Position numbers and translations under genes: made by a program
The notes under the pieces: model-generated
What the model was told of the DNA's origin: nothing
Databases searched by the model: none
Seen by the model: only the letters and a program-made list of their open reading frames with translations
Shown here: positions 3,932 through 62,088 of the stretch, piece after piece
Layout of the letters: every line of letters starts with the position of its first letter
Numbering within the stretch: position 1 is the stretch's first letter
Virus record (IMG/VR): IMGVR_UViG_3300021399_000107
Location: 93,173 to 157,172 of that record
Strand: one strand, 5' to 3'
From: a virus
Taxonomy: Duplodnaviria > Heunggongvirae > Uroviricota > Caudoviricetes
DNA length: 64,000 nucleotides

Positions 3932-3960
3932 ATTATATCATAAATTAAAAAGGAAGTCAA
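3932..3960 (-). promoter_or_regulatory. consensus sigma-A/sigma70 promoter (TTGACT-17-TATAAT) for topoisomerase operon
   Basis: The plus strand reads ATTATA-N17-AGTCAA, i.e. TTGACT N17 TATAAT on the minus strand. It sits about 25 nt upstream of the 3908 start. Confidence 0.6.
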
Positions 3961-4741: not shown

Positions 4742-5461
4742 TTATTTTACAACCTCCGTGTGTCCATCTGGAAATAATTCGATAATATTATCATAAAGAA
4801 GATTGTATTTGCCATCTGGTGTACTGCGATTAATATGATAATGCCCACAAAAAAATTTTTTGAAATCAGTCCAATCCATCACATGTTCAAGATAAACACT
4901 CATGTCGTCATGCTGATTTTCATAAGGAAAGAGAACATCAACGATACGATTTGGCGCGCAATGGGTAAGGATATAATCGACTTTCCAGTGATGAAGTTCA
5001 ATATTCTTTATACCATTATCCATTTCTTGATAAGACGCGATCTCTTGGGGCCACCATGAAATGCCTTCTTTTCGCCGCTCTCGGTCAGTTGAACGCGCTC
5101 CACCAAATACAAAAAAGGACGAACCGTTAAACTCAAAAATTTCTCCGCGCATTAGGTGATGAATATGCGGACGCAGTACATGGGTAAGGCCGCCGTGCCA
5201 TTCTTCGACTGGATAGTTATAAAGAAGCGGGAAGTTACTATGGTTGCCGTCACAAAAAGCAACGGAAAATGGCAGATCTTCAATCCATTCTAGCCAATAA
5301 TAATCTTCGCGCGCATATTTTCCTCCCCAAGGGAAGCCAAAATCGCCTGCTATAAGCACGCAATCATCTTTTGTAAGCGAGCGCCCAAGAGGAAAACGTT
5401 TGCGGCTCAGTTTCGTAATTTCTAGTGAACCATGTGTGTCTCCTGTAAGAAAAAGTCGCAT
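4742..5461 (-). CDS. calcineurin-like metallophosphoesterase
   Basis: Motifs LTGDTHG, GDFGFPWG and GNHSNF. Start chosen at MRLFLTGDTHG, which has an AGGAAGGAAG ribosome-binding site. Confidence 0.7.
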   Translation of the reverse strand: MRLFLTGDTHGSLEITKLSRKRFPLGRSLTKDDCVLIAGDFGFPWGGKYAREDYYWLEWIEDLPFSVAFCDGNHSNFPLLYNYPVEEWHGGLTHVLRPHIHHLMRGEIFEFNGSSFFVFGGARSTDRERRKEGISWWPQEIASYQEMDNGIKNIELHHWKVDYILTHCAPNRIVDVLFPYENQHDDMSVYLEHVMDWTDFKKFFCGHYHINRSTPDGKYNLLYDNIIELFPDGHTEVVK

Positions 5462-5495
5462 CGTTCTTCCTTCCTTTCTTTTTATACGATAATTA

Positions 5496-5696
5496 TTAAT
5501 TATTATCAATTACTCGACAGTTTGTAATAGCGCAAATACATCCATGTTCTTTGCTATATTGTTGTAATAGGTCTATTAAATTATCGCAACAATAAGAACT
5601 GTCGTTTAGGTAAAATTCTATGTCGCTATCATTCCACTCGGCTGGAAAAGTCATTGGTAATTGCATAGTGACTTCTACTGTCTTTTGTTGTCGCAT
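5496..5696 (-). CDS. hypothetical protein
   Basis: ORF with an AAAGGAGATGG ribosome-binding site before MRQQKTVEV. Confidence 0.35.
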   Translation of the reverse strand: MRQQKTVEVTMQLPMTFPAEWNDSDIEFYLNDSSYCCDNLIDLLQQYSKEHGCICAITNCRVIDNN

Positions 5697-5717: not shown

Positions 5718-5746
5718 ATTATACAACAAAATTAAAGGCAAGTCAA
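5718..5746 (-). promoter_or_regulatory. consensus promoter TTGACT-17-TATAAT
   Basis: ATTATA-N17-AGTCAA on the plus strand. Confidence 0.55.
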
Positions 5747-5762
5747 TTACTTGCCTTTCATC

Positions 5763-6140
5763 TTAATATTTAAGATAGCCATCGCAAACTCTTCGCAGAC
5801 ATTCATGAAAAATATAGCAACGAACAAGTGTATCCAGTAGTTGTGCGTTGATGTCGGGCTTTTGCGAAAAAAGATCGAGGTCGTGCATGGCTTCATTGAC
5901 AAGATCATAATTTCCTGCAAGCATGAGTCCGCACATAAACTCATTAGCGTAGTGTCGATCACCATTACCAGTCACGCTATCGGCTACCCATAGCTCGCTT
6001 TCCAGTACCTCAAATAGCGCGTCACTATCTTCAAAATCATTTAGATCAACATTGTGCTCAATATAATCACAAATATCGTCTTCCATTGCTTCATAATAGT
6101 TGTAAATTTCCTGCTCCATTATGCTACTAGCTCCTTCCAA
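5763..6140 (-). CDS. hypothetical acidic protein
   Basis: 125-aa ORF, no motif recognised. Confidence 0.4.
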   Translation of the reverse strand: MEGASSIMEQEIYNYYEAMEDDICDYIEHNVDLNDFEDSDALFEVLESELWVADSVTGNGDRHYANEFMCGLMLAGNYDLVNEAMHDLDLFSQKPDINAQLLDTLVRCYIFHECLRRVCDGYLKY

Positions 6141-6706
6141 GCATTAATAAGATTCTCAAGAGGTTGCGGAGTATAATTCATATAGGGCAGCATACAACCA
6201 ACATTAACGAGTTGACCGCGGTTTTCACCTGGTTGATGCTGCTTGCGCGCCAATTCACGAGTGAGTGATACCATTTGTTGATATTCTTTTGTAATATGTA
6301 CATGTCCATAAAGCATCCAACAATTATCATTGTAATCGGCCTTATAGAATGGCATAGGATAATGGGATAGAATTAGGTGCTTGCCGCGCACCTTTAGCTC
6401 CTTATAGTCAGAAATGGAGTCAAACATAGGTGCATATATTGTCGTCCATTTGTCTGGATCATGATTGCCCTTCACCAAATGCTTATGACCGCGCAATGAA
6501 CATACTAACTCTAGGTATTCTTGATCTTGCGCAGTTTTCCAACAAAAATCACCCAAAATGTAGACATGATCGGAAGCTGAAACTGCGGCGTTCCAATTCT
6601 CCACAAGCTTCTTGTTCATTTCCTCTACGGTTGAAAATGGGCGCGCATCGAATCGAATAACATTATCGTGAAAGAAATGCGTATCACTAATAAAATATTC
6701 CATCAA
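6119..6706 (-). CDS. metallophosphoesterase (second copy)
   Basis: Motifs FISDTHFFHDN, ILGDFCWK and VKGNHDP. Confidence 0.7.
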   Translation of the reverse strand: MMEYFISDTHFFHDNVIRFDARPFSTVEEMNKKLVENWNAAVSASDHVYILGDFCWKTAQDQEYLELVCSLRGHKHLVKGNHDPDKWTTIYAPMFDSISDYKELKVRGKHLILSHYPMPFYKADYNDNCWMLYGHVHITKEYQQMVSLTRELARKQHQPGENRGQLVNVGCMLPYMNYTPQPLENLINAWKELVA

Positions 6707-7230: not shown

Positions 7231-7609
7231 ATATTAGGTTTCGTAGCGTTTCGCTTTCCATTAGGTCTACATATTTCTGTCTCACTTGCGGCTCTAGTCG
7301 TAAGGTAAGGAAGACAGCGAGATTAAAGGCGGCCGCATAATGAAAAGCAGTAGCTGCATCTATCCCTTGTTTCATTATGCCTTCTGCAACAGGATTGCGC
7401 GCTTGCTTACTAGTTGATGTTTCAATGCGCGCAATTTCCTGTTCATAGGCTTCAATCCAATCATCCGGCGTGGTGCCATTTATATACTTATTAATAATAT
7501 AGCGAATTAAACAATCGCCACTTGGCGTAATTGTATAGCGTCGCTTGAGATGGAAAAGACGCAAGAAAAAGCGTCCGATTTTTCTAATCAAGTTAACACA
7601 GTATTGCAT
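7199..7609 (-). CDS. hypothetical protein
   Basis: 136-aa ORF. Confidence 0.35.
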   Translation of the reverse strand: MQYCVNLIRKIGRFFLRLFHLKRRYTITPSGDCLIRYIINKYINGTTPDDWIEAYEQEIARIETSTSKQARNPVAEGIMKQGIDAATAFHYAAAFNLAVFLTLRLEPQVRQKYVDLMESETLRNLICEMYKIYDGR

Positions 7610-8058
7610 TTAGTCCTCATCCATTCGTTGGGATGTCTTACAATATCACGCATAATACAGTAGATTGGCGATTCAATATTTTCTGCGTTTGTATTAAAAA
7701 AATAGGAACAGCCGCAGAAAGTCATTAGGGAAGTAGATTGAGAATTATCAATTTGAATCACATAGATGCGCTTTTGGAGAGCGCGAGCGTACCCTTGCTC
7801 AAAATTCGTGCCTGCTGTACTATTGCGGCCCAGGCTAATAAGGATGAGCGCATCGGCTTCCAGAATGTGCGCAATATCGTTATCATAAACCTTTTGCGCC
7901 CAAATTTCTTGTGGATAATCCCATGCGTTCGGAACCTTGAACTCGAAAGGACAATAGAGGGAATCCTCTTCGCGCATAAGCTTTTCAATCGTATGTTTTA
8001 CTGTGTGCATTAAAGAACGATGTTCGCTGTCACAAGGGCCCGCAAGATAGTACTTCAT
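7588..8058 (-). CDS. nucleoside 2-deoxyribosyltransferase / dNMP N-glycosidase (NDT/DNPH1 family)-like
   Basis: N-terminal YLAGP and the GTNFEQGYA catalytic-Glu motif characteristic of the NDT/Rcl family. Confidence 0.6.
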   Translation of the reverse strand: MKYYLAGPCDSEHRSLMHTVKHTIEKLMREEDSLYCPFEFKVPNAWDYPQEIWAQKVYDNDIAHILEADALILISLGRNSTAGTNFEQGYARALQKRIYVIQIDNSQSTSLMTFCGCSYFFNTNAENIESPIYCIMRDIVRHPNEWMRTKCNTVLT

Positions 8059-8279
8059 ACGTTATCCTCCGAAATATCTTTTTTTATTTGCTGAATCGCC
8101 CATTCCATCTTTGACAGTTCATTAAGAAGTGAAGTCGGATTTGCATGATAATGCTTAAACAAAATTTCGTCGCATGTAGCTATTACAAGCATATCACCGG
8201 GTACGGTCGTAATCGGCTTTTTATAAAGCTCCACATGACCATCGCTACGAAATTGGATTCTATATTCTTTACTCATCAC
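8055..8279 (-). CDS. hypothetical protein
   Basis: 74-aa ORF in the operon. Confidence 0.3.
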   Translation of the reverse strand: MMSKEYRIQFRSDGHVELYKKPITTVPGDMLVIATCDEILFKHYHANPTSLLNELSKMEWAIQQIKKDISEDNV

Positions 8280-8556
8280 TTACAATATCATAGGGCGGCA
8301 TATAATGCGCGCGCCTAGTTACTCCTGCCGGTAGTTCAAGAGAGAATGAAATATCGAATCCCTCTTCGCCGTACTGACGAATATCCTGATAGAACTTACA
8401 ATTATAATCCTCTCTTTCAGGGTTTAGCGCTCGATGAAAATGGTGACGTACAGATGCTTCCGGACGTTGTGATTTGTTGCAGAAATACCAACCAGTTGCG
8501 CGATTTTTAATTAGATAATAGGTCATAATACGAAGTTTCTTTTTGGGATGTGGCAT
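8269..8556 (-). CDS. hypothetical protein
   Basis: 95-aa ORF. Confidence 0.35.
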   Translation of the reverse strand: MPHPKKKLRIMTYYLIKNRATGWYFCNKSQRPEASVRHHFHRALNPEREDYNCKFYQDIRQYGEEGFDISFSLELPAGVTRRAHYMPPYDIVSDE

Positions 8557-8588
8557 CTTTCAATACCCTCCTTTTCTTTTCTAAAATT

Positions 8589-8617
8589 ATTATAGCATGA
8601 AACTAAATAAAAGTCAA
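8589..8617 (-). promoter_or_regulatory. consensus promoter TTGACT-17-TATAAT
   Basis: ATTATA-N17-AGTCAA on the plus strand. Confidence 0.55.
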
Positions 8618-8689
8618 ACTTTTTTCAACTAGCCGTAAAGTGTAATGTCAACGGACGTTAAATTAACTTGCGTGCTTTGAAAAAAATTT

Positions 8690-8745
8690 TTCGCGTAGCG
8701 AACGCTTTTTATTTTTTATATTATTTTATATATTTTATATTTCTG
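8690..8745. other. AT-rich tract (candidate DNA unwinding element)
   Basis: ttttatttttatattattttatatattttatattt lies adjacent to the iterons. Confidence 0.4.
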
Positions 8746-8866
8746 GTATCAAATTGACACCACCCTAAGGGTCAAAATGAACCCACCTAGTGGTGTCAAA
8801 ATGAACCCACTCGTGGTGTCAAATTGACACAACTCGTTAACAGGTTAGGCCAAATTGAACCCACTC
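8745..8866. repeat. iteron array (5 copies of TCAAA[A/T]TGA[A/C]CCAC core, 23-24 bp spacing)
   Basis: Repeat copies start near 8749, 8772, 8796, 8819 and 8850. The array overlaps the 3' end of the adjacent rep-like gene. Confidence 0.6.
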
Positions 8867-9238
8867 AGGATGAGCATAAAAATGGTAAAGTGGTAGGCGC
8901 ATACCTTGAGAGTCCTCGGCTATTTCTTCATTATAGACCAGATAATGCTTATCTATTAATCCTTTAATCGCGCGCTTATAGGACGATTCGCTGATACCAG
9001 TTTCATTCATTATATTTACACGACTGAGGCCGCCAATATAGTTATCTTGATTAGAAATAAGGTATAAATAAATCTTCAATTCGCTTTCGTTTAACATACG
9101 ACAAGCAAGTAGTAAGTCATCTTTGTAAACTTCTGAAACTCTTATAGCGGAATCAGGTCGCTTTTTATGTATCTGAAAAGCGCGTTGATTTTCAACGCAT
9201 TTAAAGGTTTTAGAAGTCAGTTTCACAATTATTGCCAT
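8837..9238 (-). CDS. replication initiator / replisome organizer N-terminal-domain-like protein
   Basis: 133 aa. LKIYLYLIS...NIMNETGISESSYKRAIKGLIDKHYL resembles the winged-helix N-domain of Firmicutes phage/plasmid Rep organizers. Iterons lie at its 3' end. Confidence 0.45.
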   Translation of the reverse strand: MAIIVKLTSKTFKCVENQRAFQIHKKRPDSAIRVSEVYKDDLLLACRMLNESELKIYLYLISNQDNYIGGLSRVNIMNETGISESSYKRAIKGLIDKHYLVYNEEIAEDSQGMRLPLYHFYAHPEWVQFGLTC

Positions 9239-9270
9239 ATTGTTACCTCGTTTATATGTTTATCTGCTTA

Positions 9271-9441
9271 CTAATTTTTAGTAATTAAAGGACGAAGCGC
9301 ACGTCGGAACGCCACACCATCTTCAAAATAGTAAACCATATAACGTGGATTTTTTCTATTTTTATCCATTTTAATCACCGGGAAGCCGAGCGCTTCTAGC
9401 TGATTCGCCACTCGCATGTTAAAAATAGCGTATAGAGCCAT
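9271..9441 (-). CDS. small hypothetical protein (56 aa, below ORF-track cutoff)
   Basis: Own translation MALYAIFNMRVANQLEALGFPVIKMDKNRKNPRYMVYYFEDGVAFRRALRPLITKN. GGAGGA ribosome-binding site with a TAATG stop/start overlap against the upstream gene. Confidence 0.35.
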   Translation of the reverse strand: MALYAIFNMRVANQLEALGFPVIKMDKNRKNPRYMVYYFEDGVAFRRALRPLITKN

Positions 9442-9665
9442 TAATTTTTCCTCCCATTGGTTTCATTATACAAAAGCTCCATTTTTTCCAATAAAGCTAT
9501 TGAAGGAGAACGTGTTTTAGTAAAAATTTTAGAGATATATGAACGGCTGCATCCCAGTTGTTCCGCTATGCGCTTATGTGTCCACTTTTGTTTTTGACAA
9601 TAAAGTTTAAAATTTTGTAAAAATATTTGTTTTTCTTGTTCAAATTGCGCTGAATTAAATTGCAC
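9441..9665 (-). CDS. XRE-family HTH transcriptional regulator
   Basis: The sequence RIAEQLGCSRSYISKIF is a helix-turn-helix. Confidence 0.55.
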   Translation of the reverse strand: MQFNSAQFEQEKQIFLQNFKLYCQKQKWTHKRIAEQLGCSRSYISKIFTKTRSPSIALLEKMELLYNETNGRKN

Positions 9666-9703
9666 TTTTTGTCACCTTATTCACCATATTAACATCGCGC
9701 GTG

Positions 9704-10177
9704 TTAATATGAATTTGCAAAATATAGATTTAGTCCATTAGCTTGTAGCCGGTCATACATTTGATATAGCTGGCAAAGTCGCGGAAGACCGCTAAAGCCA
9801 TCAAAGTAATCTGAATGGAAAGCATAGAACTCAATCATAGCTTTTAGTGTCTCCTTCTTGAGACGTACTATGCCAGTATCATTATGAAACGTTTCTTGAA
9901 GCGCAGGAATGGCATCCACAAGATCATGAAACTTGCGCGCGTACCACGCATCAATAGGCTTGTCTGTGGGCAAATGAAATTGACCGTCTTCGTCATAAAA
10001 ATGCTGGTTATCTATGATTTCATCAAAATCATAATAGTCGTCATATGATTGGGCCGCAAGCATGTCATAAGATTTAGCAATATAGATATTTAAGTCCATT
10101 CCCATAATAGTTGCTCCTCTTTCTTTGATTATACGCATCAAAAATTCTACTGCGTTTGAGGCTTCCTCAAAAGTCAC
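9704..10177 (-). CDS. hypothetical protein (GTG start)
   Basis: 157 aa. The start context TCGTGACTTTTGAGGAAG is duplicated at the next gene. Confidence 0.4.
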   Translation of the reverse strand: MTFEEASNAVEFLMRIIKERGATIMGMDLNIYIAKSYDMLAAQSYDDYYDFDEIIDNQHFYDEDGQFHLPTDKPIDAWYARKFHDLVDAIPALQETFHNDTGIVRLKKETLKAMIEFYAFHSDYFDGFSGLPRLCQLYQMYDRLQANGLNLYFANSY

Positions 10178-10183
10178 GAATTT

Positions 10184-10660
10184 TTAACTCCTCATAAAAT
10201 AATTTTTAATTTCCTCATATGTGAAAAAGATTTTTCCGCGCCTAAATGCTTCTTCATTCCATACTTTAGCTGCCTGTTCTACTCTTGCAAGATAGTCATA
10301 ACCATTATCAATATTGTCAGGCTTTATAAGAATAATATCTTCTGTATTATTAACATCTATTTTTTCCCAGCCCCACTCATCAGTAAAAACAGCTGGGTAA
10401 AAATTGTTTGTATTTATGTCGTCATTTATATATCCACTAACTGGATAGTAGCTAAACGTCCAACATTCAAAATCATCGTGTGTTTCATTGTAATATATAA
10501 AAGGTAGAGTACCCGGACAACAGTTAAGCGGTGCATTGTCCCATTTTTCGATATTTTTTACATCATCATAGGAATGTGCAGTAAAACGTTCATCGCAATA
10601 AAAATTGCCAATATAGGTAGTGTGTGGAGGATATTTCTTTATTACTTCTTCAAAAGTCAC
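10184..10660 (-). CDS. hypothetical protein (GTG start)
   Basis: 158 aa with the same MTFEE start context. Confidence 0.4.
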   Translation of the reverse strand: MTFEEVIKKYPPHTTYIGNFYCDERFTAHSYDDVKNIEKWDNAPLNCCPGTLPFIYYNETHDDFECWTFSYYPVSGYINDDINTNNFYPAVFTDEWGWEKIDVNNTEDIILIKPDNIDNGYDYLARVEQAAKVWNEEAFRRGKIFFTYEEIKNYFMRS

Positions 10661-10844
10661 GACTTTCTAGTTCCTTCCAAATTTTATCAGCATAAACTTC
10701 AAAAATTTTGGATTCAGTATCATTTAAGCTAATGCCGTGGTATCGTTTGAAACTAAGCATCCAATTTTTATAAAGACGATTTAAATTTTTCTTTCTGTCT
10801 TTTTTCTTTTTAGCTGTAAAACATAGATTAAGTGGTGTTTTCAT
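10650..10844 (-). CDS. hypothetical small basic protein
   Basis: 64-aa ORF. Confidence 0.3.
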   Translation of the reverse strand: MKTPLNLCFTAKKKKDRKKNLNRLYKNWMLSFKRYHGISLNDTESKIFEVYADKIWKELESRDF

Positions 10845-10876
10845 TATGGCTTCGCTCCTTTTTCTTTTGTAGCTAC

Positions 10877-10905
10877 ATTATAGCTTATTTTAAGGAAAAA
10901 GTCAA
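10877..10905 (-). promoter_or_regulatory. consensus promoter TTGACT-17-TATAAT
   Basis: ATTATA-N17-AGTCAA on the plus strand. Confidence 0.55.
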
Positions 10906-10917
10906 GAAGAAGGCCGA

Positions 10918-12210
10918 TTAAACGGCCTTCTTTTCTTTGAGAACAAGATTTAAAAATAAGCCTACAATAATACTTAGGGCAACGCCACTAAAAGAAAAAG
11001 TTCCATAATTAATTGCTATTCCGCTGACACCACAACTTAGCATTGCGGCAAAAATTAAGCTATTTTTCATATTAGAAAAATCAACTTTATTATTCATAAT
11101 AGTACGCACGCCTGCGTTGGCAATTAATGAATAACACAGAATAGATATACCAGCAAATACACAATTAGGCATGGCCGCGACAGCGCGATTAAAAGGAGTA
11201 ATAAAGCCTAGAGCAATAAGTGTTAAAGAGGCAGTAAGGAAACACCATACACTTGCTACACCACTAACGGCGATCGTACCGGTTGCTTCACTAAAAGTTG
11301 TCGTACACTGTGAACCTGTTAAGGTGCCTACAAATGAGCTTAGGCCATCACCAAGAAGAGTACGAGGGAGTTGACTAAGCGTATCAGTTCCAGTTACAAC
11401 TCCAATAGTATTCATGTCCGCGATATGCTCTGCCAGCGCAGAACAGCTAACGACCCCGAACATTAGGATAATTTGTGGTAATGTATTCCAATGAAAAGTC
11501 GCAAAGTTGATATGTGTAAAAGTTAAATCAGGAACAGAGAATAAAGACATATTTTGGAATTGAGAGAAATCTACTAAATTAGCGACCCCGCAAACTGATA
11601 GAAGAATACATAATAGATAACCAGCGAGAGTTCCGCCTAAAAATGGTAGTGTCTGCCAGATGCCTTTTGCGTAATGCCCAATAAGACAAGTAACCAAGAC
11701 TACAAAAAAGGCGATTCCAATTCCTAATAAAGAATATTGTCCATTTACTTGCGCATAAACAGGAATAAAAGAGGTGAGTGAGATTCCTATGATAAGAACT
11801 GATGTGCCTGAGATCAACGGATTGAATAGTTTATTAATCCAATTTGTGCCATAATGTTTAACAAAAAGTGCGACAACAGCATAAATTATACACATTACTA
11901 ATCCGCCAATGACTACACCTAGAAAATTTTTATGAACGGCATCAGTAAGTGTAAGCGTAGAGACAATTGCGGCAACAGTTGCACCGCTATTACTAGTAAT
12001 CGCGCTTACTTTAAAACCAGTTACCAGTAAGAAAACAAAGGTTCCTAGTCCCGCAGAAATTAATCCTGCACTAATCGGTGTGCCGCATATTAGACTAATA
12101 AGCATTGTAGCTGGTAGTACTGACAGCACAAATTGGGCCGTATAGCCAATCCATTCCTTTAAAGTACGTGGCTTTTCGCGCACGCCATAAATTAAATTTG
12201 TATTATTCAT
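10918..12210 (-). CDS. nucleobase:cation symporter-2 (NCS2, UraA/xanthine-uracil permease family) membrane transporter
   Basis: 430 aa with about 12 predicted TM segments. AEHIADMNTIGVVTG...LPRTLLGDGLSSFVGTLTGSQCTTTFSEATGTIAVSGVASVW closely matches the UraA signature region (EHIG...GDG...G.P.TTY.ENIGV...T.V.S). Confidence 0.75.
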   Translation of the reverse strand: MNNTNLIYGVREKPRTLKEWIGYTAQFVLSVLPATMLISLICGTPISAGLISAGLGTFVFLLVTGFKVSAITSNSGATVAAIVSTLTLTDAVHKNFLGVVIGGLVMCIIYAVVALFVKHYGTNWINKLFNPLISGTSVLIIGISLTSFIPVYAQVNGQYSLLGIGIAFFVVLVTCLIGHYAKGIWQTLPFLGGTLAGYLLCILLSVCGVANLVDFSQFQNMSLFSVPDLTFTHINFATFHWNTLPQIILMFGVVSCSALAEHIADMNTIGVVTGTDTLSQLPRTLLGDGLSSFVGTLTGSQCTTTFSEATGTIAVSGVASVWCFLTASLTLIALGFITPFNRAVAAMPNCVFAGISILCYSLIANAGVRTIMNNKVDFSNMKNSLIFAAMLSCGVSGIAINYGTFSFSGVALSIIVGLFLNLVLKEKKAV

Positions 12211-12245
12211 TTATATTCTCCCTATTACAGATGGTATCGTTCTCC

Positions 12246-12497
12246 TCAAAAGAAATCACTAGTAGTAATATCGTTAGGATCAAGATGAACATCCAAATTT
12301 CTATTATTCTCAGTTACTTTTGCCGTAATAACGTCCCAACTAAATGTTGGCTGCTCGCTATTACAAACAGGACAGCCTACCAGTGTCGGACCCCATGAGC
12401 GCCCGCATTTGCTACAAACCCATCCATACTGGGTGAAATTGGACGGTTCCTTATAGATATTATCAACTGTATTGTAAATTGTATTATCAATCTTCAC
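12246..12497 (-). CDS. small zinc-ribbon protein
   Basis: 83 aa with CSKCGRSW...CPVCN. Confidence 0.35.
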   Translation of the reverse strand: MKIDNTIYNTVDNIYKEPSNFTQYGWVCSKCGRSWGPTLVGCPVCNSEQPTFSWDVITAKVTENNRNLDVHLDPNDITTSDFF

Positions 12498-12509
12498 GTG
12501 TTTTCCCCC

Positions 12510-12722
12510 TTACCACTGATGTGGTTGTTTAAGATCAATTGGATGAGTACTTGAAAATTTTATTGTGTTGCAAAAACGACAATAACATTTTCTTTTATCT
12601 TTTGTTAGATAAGAGTTCCATCTATTCATTTTGCGTTTGCAACATAAATAACTATCAACTTTAGTACGACCGCAAGGATATGGATTGTATAGAGAATAGA
12701 AAAAATGAATAATTTTATTCAT
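12510..12722 (-). CDS. small Cys-rich protein
   Basis: 70-aa ORF. Confidence 0.3.
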   Translation of the reverse strand: MNKIIHFFYSLYNPYPCGRTKVDSYLCCKRKMNRWNSYLTKDKRKCYCRFCNTIKFSSTHPIDLKQPHQW

Positions 12723-13368
12723 TCTTAAATTGCTCCTTTAAAAGAGGAATGATTTCATCAAAAGAATTGTGAAGCGTATGGTCTTCGGTCGCATATAGGC
12801 ACATTCCATAAAGCATTTGGTTGATGCTGAAACTACGTCGCCAATCCTTTTCATTTAGGTGATTAGTACGAATATCAAAATAGTGCGCATAATTTTTCTT
12901 GTTCTTTTGTCGCTCAAAAACTGCCCAAAAAATATCATACATTTCCGCCTTAAAAGGTTCAGGCTGTTGCTCTAGCGGCAGCATCCACCATGCGATACCG
13001 GCTTCGGGATGTCGCTTAAAGTATTCCTGCTTCATATTTTCCCAAAGATGTTCACAAAAATACTTCCAACCATATAGAACGCCCATTTCGCACATCGTAC
13101 CAATTGCGCTTTGTTCTGGACATATAACAGTATAATCGCTGTCCCAGAGCCTACCAATATCTGCTTCGCAGATTTTTTCAGCCAAATGATTATTCTCTTC
13201 TTCTGTCATACTGGCCTTATCATTAATAGACTTGTTCATTACCGGACTATACACTTCGCCGGGAATATTAGCAGCCTTAAACTTATCATATTCTTCTTGG
13301 CGCGCAAGGTTTTCTCCACGAGTCATGATTCCACCTGCAAGATAACCTAAAGGTCTTTTTTGCTCCAT
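12715..13368 (-). CDS. second NDT/DNPH1-family (nucleoside 2-deoxyribosyltransferase-like) protein
   Basis: GYLAGG N-terminal motif and AIGTMCEMGVLYG (GT..E.G catalytic motif), with a C-terminal extension. Start chosen at MEQKRPLGYLAGG, which has a GAGGAAAAATAGT ribosome-binding site. Confidence 0.55.
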   Translation of the reverse strand: MEQKRPLGYLAGGIMTRGENLARQEEYDKFKAANIPGEVYSPVMNKSINDKASMTEEENNHLAEKICEADIGRLWDSDYTVICPEQSAIGTMCEMGVLYGWKYFCEHLWENMKQEYFKRHPEAGIAWWMLPLEQQPEPFKAEMYDIFWAVFERQKNKKNYAHYFDIRTNHLNEKDWRRSFSINQMLYGMCLYATEDHTLHNSFDEIIPLLKEQFKNE

Positions 13369-13369
13369 A

Positions 13370-14086
13370 CTATTTTTCCTCATAATGTATAAGATTTTTT
13401 ATATAATTAATGTTTAATTGATTATATTCTTTATAAGAAATACGATATAGCGGAATATTATGTTTTTTACAATATTCATTTTTAATTTCATCTATTCCTT
13501 CTCTATACCAAGCATTGGTTTTATCGAAATGTTGTTCGCCGTCATACTCTAATAAACAAAATAATTTATGATTTTTTATAATGCCCCAATCAAATCTATA
13601 CGGGGATAATTTATCGGTAAGAAAATCTGGAAACTTATATTCTGAAATAAATTGAATGTTATTATCAGATAATATATTTGTTATTTTTCGCGCACCTTTT
13701 GACTTAATACAGCCACAGCTATTAGCTTTTCCGGCTCTTAAATCCCTTCCTGCGACAATGGTGGTATTACCGCATGAACATAAACAAAGCCAATATTTGT
13801 GATGGTCAGTGTTTTTATTTGGGTTAGGCGCTTCACTTATAACAGTTAGTTCTCCATATACATTACCGATTTCATTTATTATTCTGCCATCATTAGAATG
13901 TTTTCCACAACTGGTAGATAAGCCTTTATTATAATTTTTCTTGGAAGGACACCAATAATTTCCGCAATCACATTGACATAAATAATAATCTTTTGGATTA
14001 ACTTCTTTTTTACCACGCTTATATTGTAATATATCTTCTATTGTAGCCTCACGTATAATGATAGAATTATGTTGTTGTTTTATCAT
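13370..14086 (-). CDS. free-standing homing-endonuclease-like protein: tandem Cys4 Zn modules + C-terminal Vsr/DUF559-like PD-(D/E)XK nuclease
   Basis: Repeats of the pattern WLC.C.CGN...SCGC. C-terminal EYDGEQHF...HNIPLYRI is the E.DG..H Vsr/DUF559 motif. It is a paralog of the gene at 44715-45560. Confidence 0.5.
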   Translation of the reverse strand: MIKQQHNSIIIREATIEDILQYKRGKKEVNPKDYYLCQCDCGNYWCPSKKNYNKGLSTSCGKHSNDGRIINEIGNVYGELTVISEAPNPNKNTDHHKYWLCLCSCGNTTIVAGRDLRAGKANSCGCIKSKGARKITNILSDNNIQFISEYKFPDFLTDKLSPYRFDWGIIKNHKLFCLLEYDGEQHFDKTNAWYREGIDEIKNEYCKKHNIPLYRISYKEYNQLNINYIKNLIHYEEK

Positions 14087-14135
14087 AAGTTCTTGCCACC
14101 TAAGTACCCAAGAGGTCGTTTCGTTTCCATAATTC

Positions 14136-15011
14136 CTAATTCTCCTTTCTATAATTCGTTACAACAATTTCCTCTGTTGGAGGATCGCTTTGACTTACAG
14201 TATGCGTACAATGTGAATACCCCGCATTGTAGATATTATGTACAATAAAATTTGGGTTCTCATGAATCCATTCGTCCAAAAAGGTATTGGTTTTGCCGCG
14301 ATGATGTAGTACATTCGATAGCGCGAACTTGATACCTTTTTGATGCGCGTTTTCTAGGTAATTGAGAAGCACAATTTCATCGTCTTTTGTCCACTTTTGA
14401 TTTACCTGTTGTCGTATTCCATGATTATAAACATTATTGGTAATTAGATAAGGTGGGTCAGCATAGAGAAACATGGAGGTATCTGGTTGAAAATCAACAA
14501 AACTTTTATTGTTTATTTCAATATCGCGCAAGGCCGCATGGAATGGCCCGATAGTTTTACGCTGGCGAGAACTAAAATTGGAAAAACCGCGACCAAAGCC
14601 TGCGTTCATTTGTAGGTCAGCATTAAAGCGCATCGTGAAATGAAAGCTGTAACGGGATAGAGTAAAGAGATCAAGTGGCGTATGGTACTCGGGTTTAGTG
14701 TTGTATGCGTCTCGATACGCCAAATAGCCTAGTTCGTTTTCTTTCGTAAGATTAAATTCTGCAATACGGTGTTCCATAAAGGCAAGAATTTCAGAAAGCG
14801 GTAGTTTTTGAAATTCGTAAAAAATATCAGTTACATATGAATTAATTTCAATGCCTATCTTCTTGCGCGCTTGCACGTTAGTTATAACGTCGCCGCCGCC
14901 CATAAATAAGTCCACGAATGTGTCTATATTTTCAGGAAACAAAGGCATCAGTTGTGGTAAAATTTGATACTTATTGCCGATATAATTTAAGGGTGATTTA
15001 TTATACTCCAT
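14136..15011 (-). CDS. dam: Dam-family N6-adenine DNA methyltransferase
   Basis: SPLNYIGNKYQILPQL N-terminus and DPPY motif (FLYADPPYLITN). Start at MEYNKSPLNY with an AAAGGAGGG ribosome-binding site. Confidence 0.8.
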   Translation of the reverse strand: MEYNKSPLNYIGNKYQILPQLMPLFPENIDTFVDLFMGGGDVITNVQARKKIGIEINSYVTDIFYEFQKLPLSEILAFMEHRIAEFNLTKENELGYLAYRDAYNTKPEYHTPLDLFTLSRYSFHFTMRFNADLQMNAGFGRGFSNFSSRQRKTIGPFHAALRDIEINNKSFVDFQPDTSMFLYADPPYLITNNVYNHGIRQQVNQKWTKDDEIVLLNYLENAHQKGIKFALSNVLHHRGKTNTFLDEWIHENPNFIVHNIYNAGYSHCTHTVSQSDPPTEEIVVTNYRKEN

Positions 15012-15033
15012 AACTTCCCTCCTTTTTATTTTT

Positions 15034-15062
15034 ATTATAACACGTATTTTAGAAAAAGTCAA
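15034..15062 (-). promoter_or_regulatory. consensus promoter TTGACT-17-TATAAT
   Basis: ATTATA-N17-AGTCAA on the plus strand. Confidence 0.55.
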
Positions 15063-15107
15063 ATTATTAGGTAAAAAAATAATGGGCGCTTGCGCGCCCA
15101 TTTAACA

Positions 15108-17189: not shown

Positions 17190-18317
17190 TTATATAATTT
17201 TATCAAGCGTACAGTCAGCAGGATTAAGATCATCCTTACGAATGGCTTTAATGTATGGATGGCGAATAGAAACATCCAGACGAGCGTCGCTCTTCTTTGT
17301 TTGACTCACCATCATGCCGCCAATCGTAATCGGACAAAGATACCATTCTTCCTTGAAATTATCACGCATAGATAGTTTCATTTCATCAGTTAGTCCTGCT
17401 ACTTTACAAAGCGGTACAAGTTCCCCATTCTTATCGTACACGCTAGTAAAAACTGCTCCGGGATAATTATAGAAATAATTTTTAGTAACGGGAATGTATG
17501 GCTCTCCACGCTGATAGTCGCTAAAATAATTACCCATAACAAATTCGCCCGTCTTCTTGTTCTGCCAATAGGGCCAATTTGCAAGCTCTTTACCTGTGTA
17601 GTCACGCACAGGCGGTTCAAGCGATGTGATTAGACAGTCAACGTCCGAGCTAATCTCTTGCTTTACCTTACAGGTATCCCACGCGCTAGTGCGCTTATCT
17701 GGCGTGTATGGTACGCCCTTTTTATAACAGACAGCTCCTTCTCCACCACGTTCAAAAATCTTTTGGATTTCATCAAAGAATGAGTCATCCATTTCGTGGT
17801 ATTCAATACCTTTTACAAGCGGGTTATTGATACGCGCGACTACCTCAGGGATGAAAAGAACGCGCTTTTCAATTGGTTCATTAATCATATCGTGTCCATC
17901 AAGCACTAGCACATCAAAAATGCGCCACTCAAGTTTTACGTCTTTTTGACGTTCACGGGCTTTTGGGGTGAGACAGCGTGCAATCGCACCTACATCCCGA
18001 TCAATACCGCCGGGCAAATATAGCTCTCCAAGAATGACAGTTGTCCCATTTTGAAAGGCATTAAGGACAGAATCCCAAAAAAATACCTTATCTTGTAGTT
18101 CCGAGTACGTACCAGTTCCTTTAGAAATACCGCGGGTTTGCAGAGCATTTCGTTCTGAGGTAATAACGGCGCGAGTGAAATTACCATCGAATTTTTCTGA
18201 CCAAAGATACTGACCATGCGCGGCCATTTGTTCAAGTTTTAGTCGCTTTGTGGCTGCACTCATAGTAGAAGTGGGGCTCCAATACTTTTGGACTCCCATA
18301 GTAAAATAATCTGTCAT
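17190..18317 (-). CDS. ATP-dependent DNA (or RNA) ligase, nucleotidyltransferase superfamily
   Basis: Motif I KFDGN, motif III VILGELYL, motif IV EGAVCYKKG and motif V CKVK, at T7-ligase-like spacing. Confidence 0.55.
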   Translation of the reverse strand: MTDYFTMGVQKYWSPTSTMSAATKRLKLEQMAAHGQYLWSEKFDGNFTRAVITSERNALQTRGISKGTGTYSELQDKVFFWDSVLNAFQNGTTVILGELYLPGGIDRDVGAIARCLTPKARERQKDVKLEWRIFDVLVLDGHDMINEPIEKRVLFIPEVVARINNPLVKGIEYHEMDDSFFDEIQKIFERGGEGAVCYKKGVPYTPDKRTSAWDTCKVKQEISSDVDCLITSLEPPVRDYTGKELANWPYWQNKKTGEFVMGNYFSDYQRGEPYIPVTKNYFYNYPGAVFTSVYDKNGELVPLCKVAGLTDEMKLSMRDNFKEEWYLCPITIGGMMVSQTKKSDARLDVSIRHPYIKAIRKDDLNPADCTLDKII

Positions 18318-18859
18318 ACGTACTCCTTTACGAACTTTGCCGCTGATTCAGCTAGTTGGTTTTCTGTTGAATGACCAATTATCCATTCAAAATTATAATT
18401 ATCTAGCGCGCACTCGCTAACGTGCGTCAGTTGGTTTATGCGCATAGCTGGATTATAATATGGCTTACCGTCTGTTGTAAAACGTTCTATACGAATTGTT
18501 ACAATGTTCTCAACGCCATTATATTCACATAAAGTTGCATATTCATCTTCAAAACGCCAATCAGGAACTAGTACGTAGTCCCATTGATCGGCAGTCGCGG
18601 CAATAAATTTTGCAATGATTTCGGCCCAATAGGTTGGAAACTTGGTTTTTACCCAATCGGTGCCAATAGATTGTAGCAACTTGCGGCCTTGCTCATCCTT
18701 TTCTCCATTCCACCCATATACTGAACGCGCGAAGTCCTTTACTGGGTCGCCAAAATGGAGAGTAAGAATTTTATCCGTTTCTAATTGATCCTTTAGAAAC
18801 TTTGCAAATGTATCTTTACCTGAGCCGCTTTTGCCGCTAATTAGAAAAATTTTCTTCAT
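18314..18859 (-). CDS. P-loop nucleotide kinase, dNMP-kinase-like
   Basis: Walker A ISGKSGSGKDT. Size and position resemble phage dNMP kinases. Confidence 0.5.
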   Translation of the reverse strand: MKKIFLISGKSGSGKDTFAKFLKDQLETDKILTLHFGDPVKDFARSVYGWNGEKDEQGRKLLQSIGTDWVKTKFPTYWAEIIAKFIAATADQWDYVLVPDWRFEDEYATLCEYNGVENIVTIRIERFTTDGKPYYNPAMRINQLTHVSECALDNYNFEWIIGHSTENQLAESAAKFVKEYV

Positions 18860-19890: not shown

Positions 19891-19919
19891 ATTATAATAT
19901 GAAAAGCTAAAAAAGTCAA
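19891..19919 (-). promoter_or_regulatory. consensus promoter TTGACT-17-TATAAT
   Basis: ATTATA-N17-AGTCAA on the plus strand. Confidence 0.55.
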
Positions 19920-21420: not shown

Positions 21421-21449
21421 ATTATAAATGATTTTAGGAAAAAAGTCAA
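21421..21449 (-). promoter_or_regulatory. consensus promoter TTGACT-17-TATAAT
   Basis: ATTATA-N17-AGTCAA on the plus strand. Confidence 0.55.
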
Positions 21450-33787: not shown

Positions 33788-33862
33788 TGGTCGGCGTGGG
33801 CGGAGTTGGACCACCGTTCGACGCTTATAAGACGCCAGCACTAACCGTTATACTACACGCCG
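33788..33862 (-). tRNA. tRNA with anticodon UAU (Ile/AUA-decoding type), atypical T-loop
   Basis: Minus-strand fold: CGGCGTG-TA-GTAT-AACGGTTA-GTGC-T-GGCGT-CTTATAA-GCGTC-GAAC-GGTGG-TCCAACT-CCGCC-CACGCCG-A-CCA. 75 nt, perfect acceptor stem. The T-loop has C55 instead of U. Confidence 0.5.
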
Positions 33863-34560: not shown

Positions 34561-34634
34561 TGGAGCACGATACCAGACTCGAACTGGCAACGCAACCTTG
34601 GAAGGGTCGAATGTTACCATTACACTAATCGTGC
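34561..34634 (-). tRNA. tRNA-Gly(UCC)
   Basis: Minus-strand fold: GCACGAT-TA-GTGT-AATGGTA-ACAT-T-CGACC-CTTCCAA-GGTTG-CGTT-GCCAG-TTCGAGT-CTGGT-ATCGTGC-T-CCA. Confidence 0.7.
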
Positions 34635-62029: not shown

Positions 62030-62058
62030 ATTATACTTCAAATTTAAAAAGAAGTCAA
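62030..62058 (-). promoter_or_regulatory. consensus promoter TTGACT-17-TATAAT
   Basis: ATTATA-N17-AGTCAA on the plus strand. It sits immediately after the upstream terminator. Confidence 0.55.
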
Positions 62059-62088
62059 GAAAAAAAGAAGTAGATTTTCATCTACTTC
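62058..62088 (-). terminator. rho-independent terminator
   Basis: Hairpin GAAGTAGA-N6-TCTACTTC followed by TTTTTTTCT on the minus strand. Confidence 0.5.

What the first reader, a model, noticed from the sequence alone, without database searches (positions are those of the whole stretch)
7588..13383. Phage-encoded nucleobase permease flanked by two NDT/DNPH1-family enzymes: candidate base-salvage or DNA-modification module
A 430-aa NCS2 (UraA-like) transporter (10918-12210) has a strong signature match. Two different nucleoside 2-deoxyribosyltransferase/dNMP-N-glycosidase family proteins lie nearby (7588-8058 with GTNFEQGYA; 12715-13368 with GTMCEMG). A P-loop dNMP kinase is at 18314-18859, and Dam and a second methyltransferase are also in the region.
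The module could import a base, ligate it to deoxyribose and phosphorylate it, either for dNTP supply or for a non-canonical base. Alternatively the NDT-like enzymes could act as dNMP N-glycosidases that remove a canonical nucleotide. Membrane transporters are rare in phage genomes.
Basis: partly seen in the sequence, partly recalled or inferred. Interest (0 to 1): 0.75.

Follow-up and report, generated by a model that had tools for sequence, protein, structure and literature searches.

The report
Phage nucleobase permease–deoxyribosyltransferase salvage cassette
A large gut or rumen phage carries a membrane importer for free nucleobases in what looks like one operon with an enzyme that swaps bases on deoxyribose; the same gene pair recurs in several unrelated phage lineages, which suggests phages feed DNA building blocks from scavenged bases.

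Summary
The window encodes a full-length NCS2/UraA-like permease (10918-12210), two NDT-superfamily proteins (7588-8058 and 12715-13383), a dNMP kinase and two N6-adenine methyltransferases. All sit in a phage of a roughly 180-188 kb clade distantly related to Clostridium phage c-st and SPbeta.

The core unit is NDT2 plus the permease. They lie in one predicted transcription unit. An NDT-like gene sits directly upstream of the permease in 5 of 6 distinct phage contexts. One relative kept the position but replaced NDT2 with a different NDT type. Cultured phage c-st has permease–NDT–thymidine kinase beside its topoisomerase II genes. The nearest bacterial permease homologues (~33% identity) have no NDT neighbour.

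The best reading is a base-salvage cassette built like upp-uraA: import a base, most likely a pyrimidine, trap it on deoxyribose or deoxyribose-5-phosphate, then phosphorylate it.

Both window NDTs lack the Asp that binds the 5'-OH in all solved nucleoside transferases. NDT1 instead carries the Thr/Ser pattern of DNPH1 and DmtZ, so dNMP-level chemistry is plausible but unproven.

The modified-DNA reading finds no support. The PurA-like gene at 62 kb keeps Asp13 and is not PurZ. No base-modifying enzyme was found in the window or its flanks.

The parts
15034..15062 (-). Promoter-like site TTGACT-N17-TATAAT with a TG extension. Predicted start of the transcription unit that holds Dam, a homing endonuclease, NDT2, two small ORFs and the permease.
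   Evidence: Scores 11/12 in the scan. It is one of 19 matches (16 exact, 3 with one mismatch) to this motif, all on the coding strand, against 1.08 expected.
14136..15101 (-). D12-class (Dam-like) N6-adenine DNA methyltransferase. The true start is probably the internal ATG near 15011, downstream of the promoter.
   Evidence: Pfam MethyltransfD12 2.8e-24; PHROG 56.
13370..14086 (-). HNH or homing-endonuclease-like gene inserted between Dam and NDT2. It has a paralogue at 44715-45560.
   Evidence: PHROG 559/374/9084; paralogy seen.
12715..13383 (-). NDT2: a PHROG 1817-type NDT-superfamily enzyme. Likely start is 13368, giving 217 aa. Putative catalytic Tyr14, Asp75 and Glu99, with Ala93 at the position of the 5'-OH-binding Asp. 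It has a variable helical insert (~108-160) and an invariant C-terminal DIRTNHLNEKDWRRSFSINQ block.
12510..12722 (-). Cys-rich 70-aa ORF whose start overlaps the NDT2 stop. Conserved in relative L002 (57% identity). Function unknown.
12246..12497 (-). 83-aa ORF with a CxxC...CxxC zinc-ribbon-like motif. Function unknown.
10918..12210 (-). NCS2/NAT-family nucleobase permease, UraA-like. Both substrate-binding glutamates are kept: E261 matches UraA E241 and E308 matches E290. The pocket differs from uracil permeases at UraA F73 (Gly here) and N291 (Ala here).
10907..10932 (-). Strongest terminator-like hairpin of the region (10-bp stem, 6 GC pairs). The permease stop codon sits in its loop. The next TTGACT/TATAAT promoter (10877-10905) follows directly.
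8589..8617 (-). Promoter-like site heading the separate unit that contains NDT1.
7588..8058 (-). NDT1: an NDT-fold enzyme with Tyr4, Asp61 and Glu87. Thr81 and Ser110 occupy the positions of LlNDT Asp92 and Asn123, which are Ser87 and Ser117 in Rcl. It has a DmtZ-like 'GPCDS' loop and an invariant C-terminal C-x-T-x-L-T.
6119..6706 (-). Calcineurin-like metallophosphoesterase in the NDT1 transcription unit. Possibly a nucleotidase; this is inference only. A Metallophos gene also directly precedes the NDT1 homologue in L021.
4742..5509 (-). Second metallophosphoesterase (PHROG 1649).
18314..18859 (-). P-loop deoxynucleoside monophosphate kinase. Syntenic in relatives L002-L004.

Best explanation
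This is a phage-encoded nucleobase-salvage cassette.

Proposed mechanism:
1. The NCS2 permease inserts into the host membrane and imports a free base by proton symport. The base is most likely a pyrimidine such as uracil or thymine, because the binding site is of the 'Glu-type' UraA/PyrP kind. The pocket is remodelled, so the exact substrate is open.
2. The co-transcribed NDT-superfamily enzyme NDT2 traps the imported base. It exchanges the base onto a 2'-deoxyribosyl, or 2'-deoxyribosyl-5-phosphate, donor derived from host DNA breakdown.
3. The phage dNMP kinase and host NDP kinase carry the product to dNTP.

The operon logic matches cellular pairs of a permease plus a base-trapping transferase, such as E. 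coli upp-uraA and B. subtilis xpt-pbuX. Here a deoxyribosyl transferase replaces the phosphoribosyltransferase. Scavenged bases therefore enter DNA precursors directly, and the dNMP pool from host DNA can be re-balanced to the phage's 39% GC composition without ribonucleotide reduction. NDT1, in a neighbouring unit with phosphoesterases, is a second and more loosely associated base-exchange or dNMP-hydrolase activity.

What is shown: family and fold membership, conservation of catalytic residues, gene linkage and the predicted transcription unit.

What is inferred: direction of transport, the identity of the base, nucleoside versus nucleotide donor, and the physiological purpose.
For: 1. Families:
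- The permease is a full-length UraA homologue. Both substrate-binding glutamates are invariant across 113 phage homologues.
- NDT1 has the NDT fold with high confidence.
- The catalytic Tyr is present in all of them. Per PMC12884076, which cites the MilB work, this Tyr excludes ribo substrates.

2. Linkage:
- An NDT-like gene lies directly upstream of the permease in the window and in L002 and L003 (same clade, permease ~50% identical).
- The same holds in L010/L011 (PolIII-alpha/NrdD backbone, TAG-recoded; NDT2 orthologue 55% identical and overlapping the permease start).
- It also holds in L006, L007-9 and L015/16, which carry a different 173-aa NDT type that scores above the Pfam cut-off.
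- In L004, a member of the window's own clade, a remnant of NDT2 sits next to an intact 182-aa NDT of the other type, still upstream of the permease. That is replacement with the function retained.
- Only L005 lacks an NDT. It has a P-loop kinase and a phosphoesterase there instead.

3. Cultured Clostridium phage c-st (185.7 kb) has uracil permease, a hypothetical gene, NDT, a hypothetical gene and thymidine kinase. These sit just upstream of topoisomerase II B and A, the same genomic position as in the window. A YorS-type deoxyribonucleotidase lies just beyond.

4. Bacterial homologues at ~33% identity are chromosomal and have no NDT neighbour.

5. Transcription. A TTGACT-N17-TATAAT promoter at 15034-15062 and the best terminator hairpin at 10907-10932 bracket Dam, the HNH gene, NDT2, orf70, orf83 and the permease. 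Gaps are tiny or overlapping.

6. Neighbours in other lineages are classical dNTP-supply genes: NrdD, NrdG, guanylate kinase, dUTPase and a second AzgA-type purine permease.
Against: - No activity has been measured for any member.
- Base exchange does not increase total deoxyribose, so the benefit (pool re-balancing or trapping) is conjecture.
- The host and its GC content are unknown.
- NCS2 specificity cannot be read from sequence. The phage clade has lost the otherwise conserved Asn of the NAT motif and Phe73 of UraA.
- The PHROG 1817 family, including members with Ala at the -6 position, occurs in many phages without a permease. NDT2's function therefore does not require imported bases.
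- NDT1 is not permease-linked elsewhere.
- No thymidine kinase was found in the window. A nucleoside-level route would need a kinase from the host or from an unseen part of the genome.
- Roughly 100 kb of the genome could not be inspected.
Confidence: 0.5

Rival explanations
1. Nucleotide-pool sanitising for modified DNA. The NDT-like enzymes are dNMP N-glycosidases of the DNPH1/DmtZ type. They destroy one canonical dNMP so that a non-canonical base replaces it. The permease imports the replacement base or disposes of the released one.
For: - NDT1 has Thr81 and Ser110 where Rcl has Ser87 and Ser117 and DmtZ has Thr and Ser. It also has a DmtZ-like P-x-D loop.
- NDT2 and the 173-aa type also lack the 5'-OH-binding Asp.
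- DmtZ shows that phages do use NDT-fold dAMP hydrolases and dR5P transferases (PMC12884076).
- NDT domains are enriched in dZ contigs (bioRxiv 10.1101/2025.10.22.683976).
- A PurA homologue and a MazG-like ORF lie at 61-63 kb.
Against: - The PurA homologue keeps Asp13 (GDEGKG), whereas 100% of phage PurZ have Ser. It scores 26.8 bits against a cut-off of 300 on the NCBIfam PurZ model. It has no significant BLAST similarity to phiVC8 PurZ and only a marginal 40-residue match to Ghobes PurZ0 (E=0.003 in a four-sequence database).
- Two N6-adenine methyltransferases imply adenine in the DNA.
- No hydroxymethylase, glycosyltransferase, DpdA/Que, DatZ or DutZ gene was found in the window or flanks.
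- c-st pairs the cassette with thymidine kinase, which is a salvage enzyme.
- NDT1 keeps the Pro that the DmtZ paper reports as conserved in all known transferases, plus a conserved C-terminal tail.
Confidence: 0.12
2. Two independent auxiliary genes. The permease simply raises host uptake of bases, which host phosphoribosyltransferases and RNR then process. The NDT-like genes do something unrelated, and the adjacency reflects shared regulation or co-transfer only.
For: - PHROG 1817 NDTs are common in phages with no permease.
- L005 has the permease without an NDT.
- An NDT1 homologue sits without a permease in L021.
Against: - The adjacency is kept across at least four backbones, with different NDT types.
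- It survives an in-situ replacement in L004.
- It survives a homing-endonuclease insertion and a change of genetic code.
- The genes overlap or nearly abut: a 14-nt overlap in L010 and a 10-bp gap in L003.
- Bacterial homologues lack the pairing.
Confidence: 0.2
3. A counter-defence role. The cassette restores dNTP supply when host defences deplete nucleotides, for example dCTP deaminase or dGTPase systems, rather than serving routine replication.
For: This is compatible with every point of the salvage model. NADAR and isochorismatase-like genes elsewhere in the window hint at anti-defence cargo.
Against: Nothing specific supports it. No PADLOC family matched any of the proteins. The neighbours are replication and nucleotide-metabolism genes.
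Confidence: 0.1

Closest known systems
Cellular operons pairing a permease with a base-trapping transferase: E. coli upp-uraA, B. subtilis xpt-pbuX and pyrR-pyrP (from established knowledge)
   Same: An NCS2 nucleobase permease is co-transcribed with the enzyme that converts the imported base into a nucleoside or nucleotide.
   Different: The partner is an NDT-superfamily deoxyribosyl-type enzyme rather than a phosphoribosyltransferase. The cassette is phage-borne and sits among replication genes.
Clostridium botulinum phage c-st, genes CST091-CST095: uracil permease, hypothetical, NDT, hypothetical, thymidine kinase
   Same: - Same permease family, sharing the TTFSEA and E-x-x-x-D motifs.
- Same NDT architecture: about 221 aa with a helical insert and a DIR motif.
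- Same position beside topoisomerase II B and A.
- Same genome size class.
   Different: - The c-st NDT keeps Asp at the -6 position and has an adjacent thymidine kinase, which suggests a nucleoside-level route.
- The window's NDT2 has Ala there, and no TK is visible.
- Gene order is inverted.
- Identity is only about 23-27%.
- No paper in the searched library discusses the c-st genes as a module.
[quoted passage not shown]
   Same: A phage NDT-fold enzyme. It has Thr at the -6 position, Ser at the Asn123 position, a P-x-D loop after the catalytic Tyr and a Pro in the loop after beta-2. NDT1 shares all of these.
   Different: - There is no significant pairwise similarity (the window's NDT1 against DmtZ gives E=0.8).
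- No PurZ0 or DutZ partner is present.
- DmtZ has Asn where the window enzymes have the catalytic Asp.
- The window's genome shows no sign of the Z base.
DNPH1/Rcl 2'-deoxynucleoside 5'-phosphate N-hydrolase
   Same: The fold (TM about 0.65) and small hydroxyl residues at both phosphate-contact positions, for NDT1.
   Different: NDT1 ranks closer to true transferases by fold. It has a transferase-like conserved C-terminal tail.
Lactobacillus NDT and PTD (class II and class I nucleoside 2'-deoxyribosyltransferases)
   Same: The best structural matches for NDT1, with the Tyr/Asp/Glu triad.
   Different: The Asp92 and Asn123 5'-OH ligands are absent. The designed enzyme 4HX9 is itself among the fold hits.
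E. coli UraA and Firmicute PyrP uracil permeases
   Same: Full-length homology, both glutamates, and Glu as the first residue of the NAT motif.
   Different: - About 28% identity.
- Below the NCBIfam equivalog cut-offs.
- Gly in place of Phe73.
- The NAT-motif Asn is lost across the phage clade.

Membership tests
NCS2/NAT nucleobase:cation symporter | Pfam Xan_ur_permease domain above the gathering score, covering the whole protein | tested here: met
   149.1 bits against 27; residues 24-399 match profile positions 7-385 of 389.
NCS2/NAT nucleobase:cation symporter | End-to-end alignment to a solved 14-TM member (UraA), with a hydrophobic profile throughout | tested here: met
   Residues 7-425 align to UraA 5-407, E=1.4e-33. 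Hydrophobic segments span the whole length.
NCS2/NAT nucleobase:cation symporter | The two substrate-binding glutamates (UraA E241 and E290) | tested here: met
   E261 is conserved in 112 of 113 phage homologues and E308 in all 113.
NCS2/NAT nucleobase:cation symporter | Canonical NAT signature [Q/E/P]-N-x-G-x-x-x-x-T-[R/K/G] | tested here: not met
   The window has E-A-T-G-T-I-A-V-S-G. The Asn is replaced by Y, A, S or G across the clade, and the Thr by Ser. The motif definition is from memory.
Uracil permease equivalog (NCBIfam NF007995) | Score above the curated equivalog cut-off | tested here: not met
   181 bits against 477. RutG scores 155 against 759. pbuX scores 116 against 414.
NCS2/NAT nucleobase:cation symporter | Transport of a nucleobase | not testable with these tools
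   Needs an uptake assay.
Nucleoside 2'-deoxyribosyltransferase (NDT/PTD) | NDT (flavodoxin-like) fold | tested here: met
   - NDT1: pLDDT 91.7; the top 34 Foldseek hits are NDT, PTD, the designed phosphodeoxyribosyltransferase 4HX9, or 7M5H, an E. faecalis entry deposited as 'conserved protein' (its molecule name is NDT).
Nucleoside 2'-deoxyribosyltransferase (NDT/PTD) | Catalytic Tyr / Asp / Glu triad | tested here: met
   NDT1 has Y4, D61 and E87; NDT2 has Y14, D75 and E99. All are invariant in 34-sequence family alignments. They align in register with LlNDT Y7/D72/E98 and Rcl Y13/D69/E93.
Nucleoside 2'-deoxyribosyltransferase (NDT/PTD) | An Asp six residues before the catalytic Glu (LlNDT D92), plus Asn123, which bind the 5'-OH of the nucleoside | tested here: not met
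   - NDT1: Thr81 and Ser110.
- NDT2: Ala93.
- The 173-aa type: Pro.
- Each solved NDT whose alignment was printed has Asp at this position (6EVS, 7O62, 8QC0, 7M5H, 1F8X).
- The c-st NDT does keep the Asp.
DNPH1 / DmtZ-type dNMP N-hydrolase or dR5P transferase | Small uncharged or hydroxyl residues at both 5'-phosphate contact positions (Rcl S87 and S117) | tested here: met
   NDT1 has T81 and S110, with invariant R78 and S80 nearby. DmtZ has Thr and Ser at the same columns. For NDT2 only the first position could be placed (Ala), so it is inconclusive.
DNPH1 / DmtZ-type dNMP N-hydrolase or dR5P transferase | Significant sequence relationship to DmtZ, and genomic association with PurZ0 and DutZ | tested here: not met
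   BLAST of the window's NDT1 against DmtZ gives E=0.8, and NDT2 gives E=3. There is no PurZ0 or DutZ in the window.
DNPH1 / DmtZ-type dNMP N-hydrolase or dR5P transferase | Hydrolysis of, or transfer from, dNMP | not testable with these tools
   Needs an enzyme assay.
PurZ / Z-genome (2-aminoadenine) system | Replacement of catalytic Asp13 by Ser (phiVC8 S14) | tested here: not met
   The window protein (62082-63155) has GANYGDEGKG. Asp aligns with PurA D13, whereas phiVC8 PurZ and Ghobes PurZ0 have Ser. The criterion comes from PMC12884076 and bioRxiv 10.1101/2025.10.22.683976.
PurZ / Z-genome (2-aminoadenine) system | Match to the NCBIfam PurZ model, and similarity to known PurZ | tested here: not met
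   26.8 bits against a cut-off of 300, covering the P-loop only. BLAST to phiVC8 PurZ is not significant, and to Ghobes PurZ0 gives only E=0.003 over 40 residues.
dNMP kinase | Pfam DNMK above cut-off and a P-loop | tested here: met
   42.2 bits against 27.1. PHROG 139 scores 4.5e-31. The GKSGSGKDT motif is present.

The most novel reading that the evidence does not exclude
The permease-linked phage NDT families (PHROG 1817-type NDT2, the 173-aa type, and NDT1) may be natural 2'-deoxyribose-5-phosphate transferases operating in phages with canonical DNA. On this reading they take dNMPs released from host DNA and swap in bases imported by a dedicated phage permease. That would be an RNR-independent 'base-swap' route: it re-tunes the dNMP pool to the phage's base composition and traps scavenged bases directly as DNA precursors. 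It would extend DmtZ-type chemistry well beyond Z-genome phages and define a new, widespread viral salvage pathway.
Probability: 0.25. Interest if true: 0.8.

Novelty: new variant of a known kind. Interest (0 to 1): 0.6.

Why it matters
If correct, large gut and rumen phages do more than rewire intracellular nucleotide metabolism. They would also install their own uptake system for environmental nucleobases and couple it to a deoxyribosyl-transfer enzyme.

This is a concrete, testable case of a virus changing what its host imports.

It also flags three uncharacterised NDT families that lack the nucleoside 5'-OH ligand. These are candidates for natural dNMP-level transferases, which are of practical interest for making nucleotide analogues.

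Phage c-st carries the cassette and is cultured, so it offers an experimental entry point.

Tried and rejected
1. Z-genome (2-aminoadenine) reading. It was prompted by the PHROG 1211 label on 62082-63155. It was rejected because Asp13 is retained, the PurZ model fails, there is at most a marginal 40-residue BLAST match to PurZ0 and none to PurZ, and N6-adenine methyltransferases are present.

2. Close DNA relatives among sequenced phages: none found by megablast. NDT1 has only two weak tblastn hits in INPHARED.

3. Defence or anti-defence membership: no meaningful PADLOC hits.

5. NDT1 as an obligate part of the cassette: not supported, because the L021 homologue has no permease within 10 kb.

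6. Recent capture of a host permease: rejected. The nearest bacterial homologues are about 33% identical, and the phage clade has its own binding-site changes.

7. Walking along the source contigs to inventory RNR, ThyA, TK and the polymerase was not possible. Look-ups are restricted to window proteins and listed homologues, so only about 10 kb beyond each window end was seen.

8. Literature searches for a phage permease-NDT module found nothing.

Caveats on sequences used:
The Asp13 equivalence is shown independently by the alignment to PDB 3HID.
- The UraA sequence was transcribed from the alignment printed.

Full report
**What is in the window**

83 of 88 ORFs of 60 aa or more lie on the minus strand. 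PHROG and Pfam scans identify the following:
- Both topoisomerase II subunits. The A subunit runs off the left end of the window.
- Two N6-adenine methyltransferases.
- A PhoH-PIN protein, a ClpP-like protease, an ATP-dependent DNA ligase, a dNMP kinase and RNase H.
- Holin- and endolysin-like genes, and tail and tail-fibre proteins.

Megablast finds no sequenced phage relative. The proteins of interest occur on metagenome contigs of 130-188 kb and on IMG/VR viral contigs. The element is therefore a member of an abundant, uncultured clade of roughly 180-188 kb phages. A YorF-family gene in the left flank and synteny with Clostridium phage c-st place it loosely among SPbeta/c-st-like phages of Firmicutes.

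**Checking the observation**

- The 430-aa protein scores 149 bits on Xan_ur_permease. It aligns over its whole length with the E. coli UraA crystal structures.
- NDT1 (7588-8058) passes the Pfam threshold for Nuc_deoxyrib_tr. It gives a confident AlphaFold2 model (pLDDT 91.7). Its best structural neighbours are purine and nucleoside 2'-deoxyribosyltransferases, followed by DNPH1.
- NDT2 (12715-13383, probable start 13368) is just below the Pfam threshold at 27.3 bits against 28.8. It matches PHROG 1817 'nucleoside 2-deoxyribosyltransferase' at 3e-32 over its full length.
- A profile-profile comparison with the NDT1 family puts Tyr, Asp and Glu in register (E=0.003, reported probability 9.9%).
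- The characterised enzyme DmtZ scores even lower on the same Pfam model, at 18.3 bits.
- The dNMP kinase and both methyltransferases are confirmed.

**The unit is NDT2 plus the permease**

The window contains 19 matches to TTGACT-N17-TATAAT (16 exact, 3 with one mismatch), all on the coding strand, against 1.08 expected. One sits at 15034-15062. The next sits at 10877-10905, immediately after the strongest terminator-like hairpin of the region. That hairpin (10907-10932) has the permease stop codon in its loop.

Between them lie, with overlaps or gaps of at most about 50 bp: Dam, a homing-endonuclease-like gene, NDT2, two small Cys-rich ORFs and the permease. NDT1 lies behind a separate promoter (8589-8617), in a unit that also holds a metallophosphoesterase.

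**Conservation of the pairing**

- Same clade, permease about 50% identical, NDT2 about 67% identical. L002 and L003 have NDT2 directly upstream of the permease.
- L004 belongs to the same clade. It keeps a 72-aa remnant of NDT2's insert region. Beside it sits an intact 182-aa NDT of a different type, then a GIY-YIG endonuclease, then the permease.
- A different backbone (DNA polymerase III alpha, NrdD/NrdG, guanylate kinase). L006, L007-9 and L015/16 carry a 118-aa SLOG-like ORF, that 173-aa NDT type, a 67-aa ORF and the permease. L015 is a 212 kb contig.
- A third backbone, L010/11. An NDT2 orthologue (55% identity) overlaps the start of the permease (44% identity). A second, AzgA-type purine permease and a dUTPase follow.
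- These last two lineages read in-frame TAG codons that align with Gln.
- Only L005 lacks an NDT next to the permease.
- Bacterial homologues appear at about 33% identity. They are chromosomal and have no NDT neighbour.
- The cultured phage c-st has uracil permease, a hypothetical gene, NDT, a hypothetical gene and thymidine kinase. These lie just upstream of its topoisomerase II genes, with a YorS-type deoxyribonucleotidase just beyond.

The pairing survives changes of backbone, of genetic code and of NDT type. That is hard to explain without a functional link.

**What the permease may carry**

Across 113 phage homologues, the equivalents of UraA E241 and E290 are conserved in 112 and in all 113 sequences respectively. 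The first residue of the NAT motif is Glu, as in uracil permeases. NCBIfam ranks uracil permease and RutG above xanthine permease, but all are far below the equivalog cut-offs.

Relative to UraA and to the nearest bacterial homologues, the phage clade, including c-st, has Gly in place of Phe73 and has lost the NAT-motif Asn. A pyrimidine is the best guess. The pocket is remodelled, so the substrate must be measured.

**What the NDT-like enzymes may do**

The reference sequences for rat Rcl and L. leichmannii NDT were verified as exact matches to PDB entries 2KHZ and 1F8X. All three permease-associated NDT types keep the catalytic Tyr, Asp and Glu. According to PMC12884076, the Tyr excludes ribo substrates.

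None keeps the Asp six residues before the Glu. That Asp binds the 5'-OH in every solved nucleoside transferase whose alignment was printed. NDT1 has Thr, NDT2 Ala and the 173-aa type Pro.

NDT1 also has Ser at the Asn123 position. This reproduces the Ser87/Ser117 pattern of Rcl and the Thr/Ser pattern of DmtZ. It further shares DmtZ's P-x-D loop. As I recall the work (it was not checked here), Kaminski and Labesse mutated these same two positions to make NDT accept dNMPs; PMC12884076 cites that study.

DmtZ, published in 2026, is a phage NDT-fold enzyme that hydrolyses dAMP. It also transfers deoxyribose-5-phosphate to a base. dNMP-level chemistry is therefore plausible, above all for NDT1, but it is inferred from a handful of residues.

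Two further points cut in different directions. The c-st NDT keeps the Asp and sits beside thymidine kinase, which fits a nucleoside-level route there. Ala at -6 is general to PHROG 1817 members, including phages without a permease.

**Mechanism proposed**

Cellular operons pair a nucleobase permease with the transferase that traps the base: upp-uraA and xpt-pbuX, from established knowledge. By analogy, the phage cassette would do three things:
1. Import a base.
2. Exchange it onto a deoxyribosyl or deoxyribosyl-5-phosphate donor derived from host DNA.
3. Pass the product to the phage dNMP kinase.

This would trap scavenged bases directly as DNA precursors. It would also let the phage re-balance host-derived dNMPs. 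Confidence is about 0.5.

**The modified-DNA alternative**

The window has a PurA homologue (62082-63155) that PHROG labels like PurZ. It keeps Asp13 and scores 26.8 bits against a cut-off of 300 on the PurZ model. It has no significant similarity to phiVC8 PurZ and only a marginal 40-residue match to Ghobes PurZ0 (E=0.003). By the published criterion of Asp to Ser in 100% of phage PurZ (PMC12884076), it is not PurZ.

Two adenine methyltransferases also argue for ordinary adenine. No base-modifying enzyme was seen in the window or in about 10 kb beyond each end. About 100 kb of the genome could not be inspected, so this rival is lowered, not excluded.

**Novelty and score**

The individual families are known. 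The genes have been annotated in the c-st record. No paper in the searched library treats permease plus NDT as a module.

The new elements are:
- The recurrent cassette across phage lineages.
- A phage-specific NCS2 clade with an altered binding pocket.
- NDT partners that lack the nucleoside 5'-OH ligand.

I rate this a new variant of a known kind (viral nucleotide-salvage genes), with interest 0.6. The most novel reading not excluded is natural dNMP base-swapping fed by a viral permease. It has a probability of about 0.25 and would deserve an interest of about 0.8 if true.

Noticed in passing
window, 19 sites, e.g. 2008-2036, 3932-3960, 5718-5746, 8589-8617, 10877-10905, 15034-15062, 19891-19919, 21421-21449, 62030-62058: A conserved promoter-like motif, TTGACT(TTT)-N17-TATAAT, occurs 19 times (16 exact). 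All copies are on the coding strand and mostly intergenic, against 1.08 expected. This suggests host sigma-70-type early or middle promoters, and a host outside the Bacteroidota.
   Followed up: partly
window 62082-63155 (-), with neighbours 61322-61966, 61074-61325 and 60700-61068: A short (357 aa), very divergent PurA homologue. It keeps Asp13 and His41, but the GTP-specificity motif TKLD reads THFN. It is neither PurZ nor an ordinary PurA. Next to it lie a PHROG 388 nucleotidyltransferase-like ORF and an 83-aa MazG-like ORF (PHROG 419/4159). Homologues occur in Vibrio, Rhizobium and cluster C mycobacteriophage genomes.
   Followed up: partly
window 59637-60173 (-) and 59267-59650 (-): An isochorismatase or nicotinamidase-like hydrolase is followed by a NADAR-domain ORF. 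The NADAR match is 33 bits, just below the Pfam cut-off. This may be NAD/ADP-ribose-related anti-defence cargo.
   Followed up: no
L005, L007-L009, L010-L011, L015-L016 (e.g. L007 10001-11257; L010 9349-10014): Relatives carrying the cassette have in-frame TAG codons that align with Gln in homologues. Their genes end in TAA or TGA. This indicates TAG-to-Gln recoding in those phage lineages. The window itself uses the standard code.
   Followed up: partly
L004 7941-8710: A 72-aa remnant of NDT2's variable insert lies directly before an intact 182-aa NDT of the other type. A GIY-YIG homing endonuclease sits between that NDT and the permease. Together these record an in-situ gene replacement.
   Followed up: yes
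L010 11275-12678 and 12952-15220: One lineage adds a second, AzgA-type purine permease. It also adds a 307-aa dUTPase with a roughly 140-aa N-terminal extension, a radical-SAM protein and a family-2 glycosyltransferase, all directly after the cassette. The extension and the last two genes were not analysed.
   Followed up: no
window 13370-14086, 44715-45560 and 52089-52958: There are three homing-endonuclease-like genes: two HNH/DUF2726-type paralogues and one GIY-YIG type. One splits Dam from NDT2. One follows the endolysin.
   Followed up: no
window 33788-33862 and 34561-34634 (-): Two phage tRNA genes: tRNA-Ile (anticodon UAU) and tRNA-Gly (anticodon UCC).
   Followed up: no
window 6119-6706 and 4742-5509; L021 9232-9942; L005 7556-8128: Calcineurin-like metallophosphoesterases recur next to NDT1 (in the window and L021) or next to the permease (in L005). 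They may be nucleotidases that supply deoxynucleoside donors.
   Followed up: no
window 1-1984 (-): The apparently ORF-poor left end is the N-terminal 661 codons of the topoisomerase II A-subunit gene, which runs off the window. The gene is complete (727 aa) in L013 at 11925-14108.
   Followed up: yes
L014 1180-1605, 4533-5660 and 5681-6574 (just beyond the window's right end): A dCMP deaminase, a T4 Rnl1-type RNA ligase and a polynucleotide-kinase-like P-loop protein lie just outside the window.
   Followed up: no
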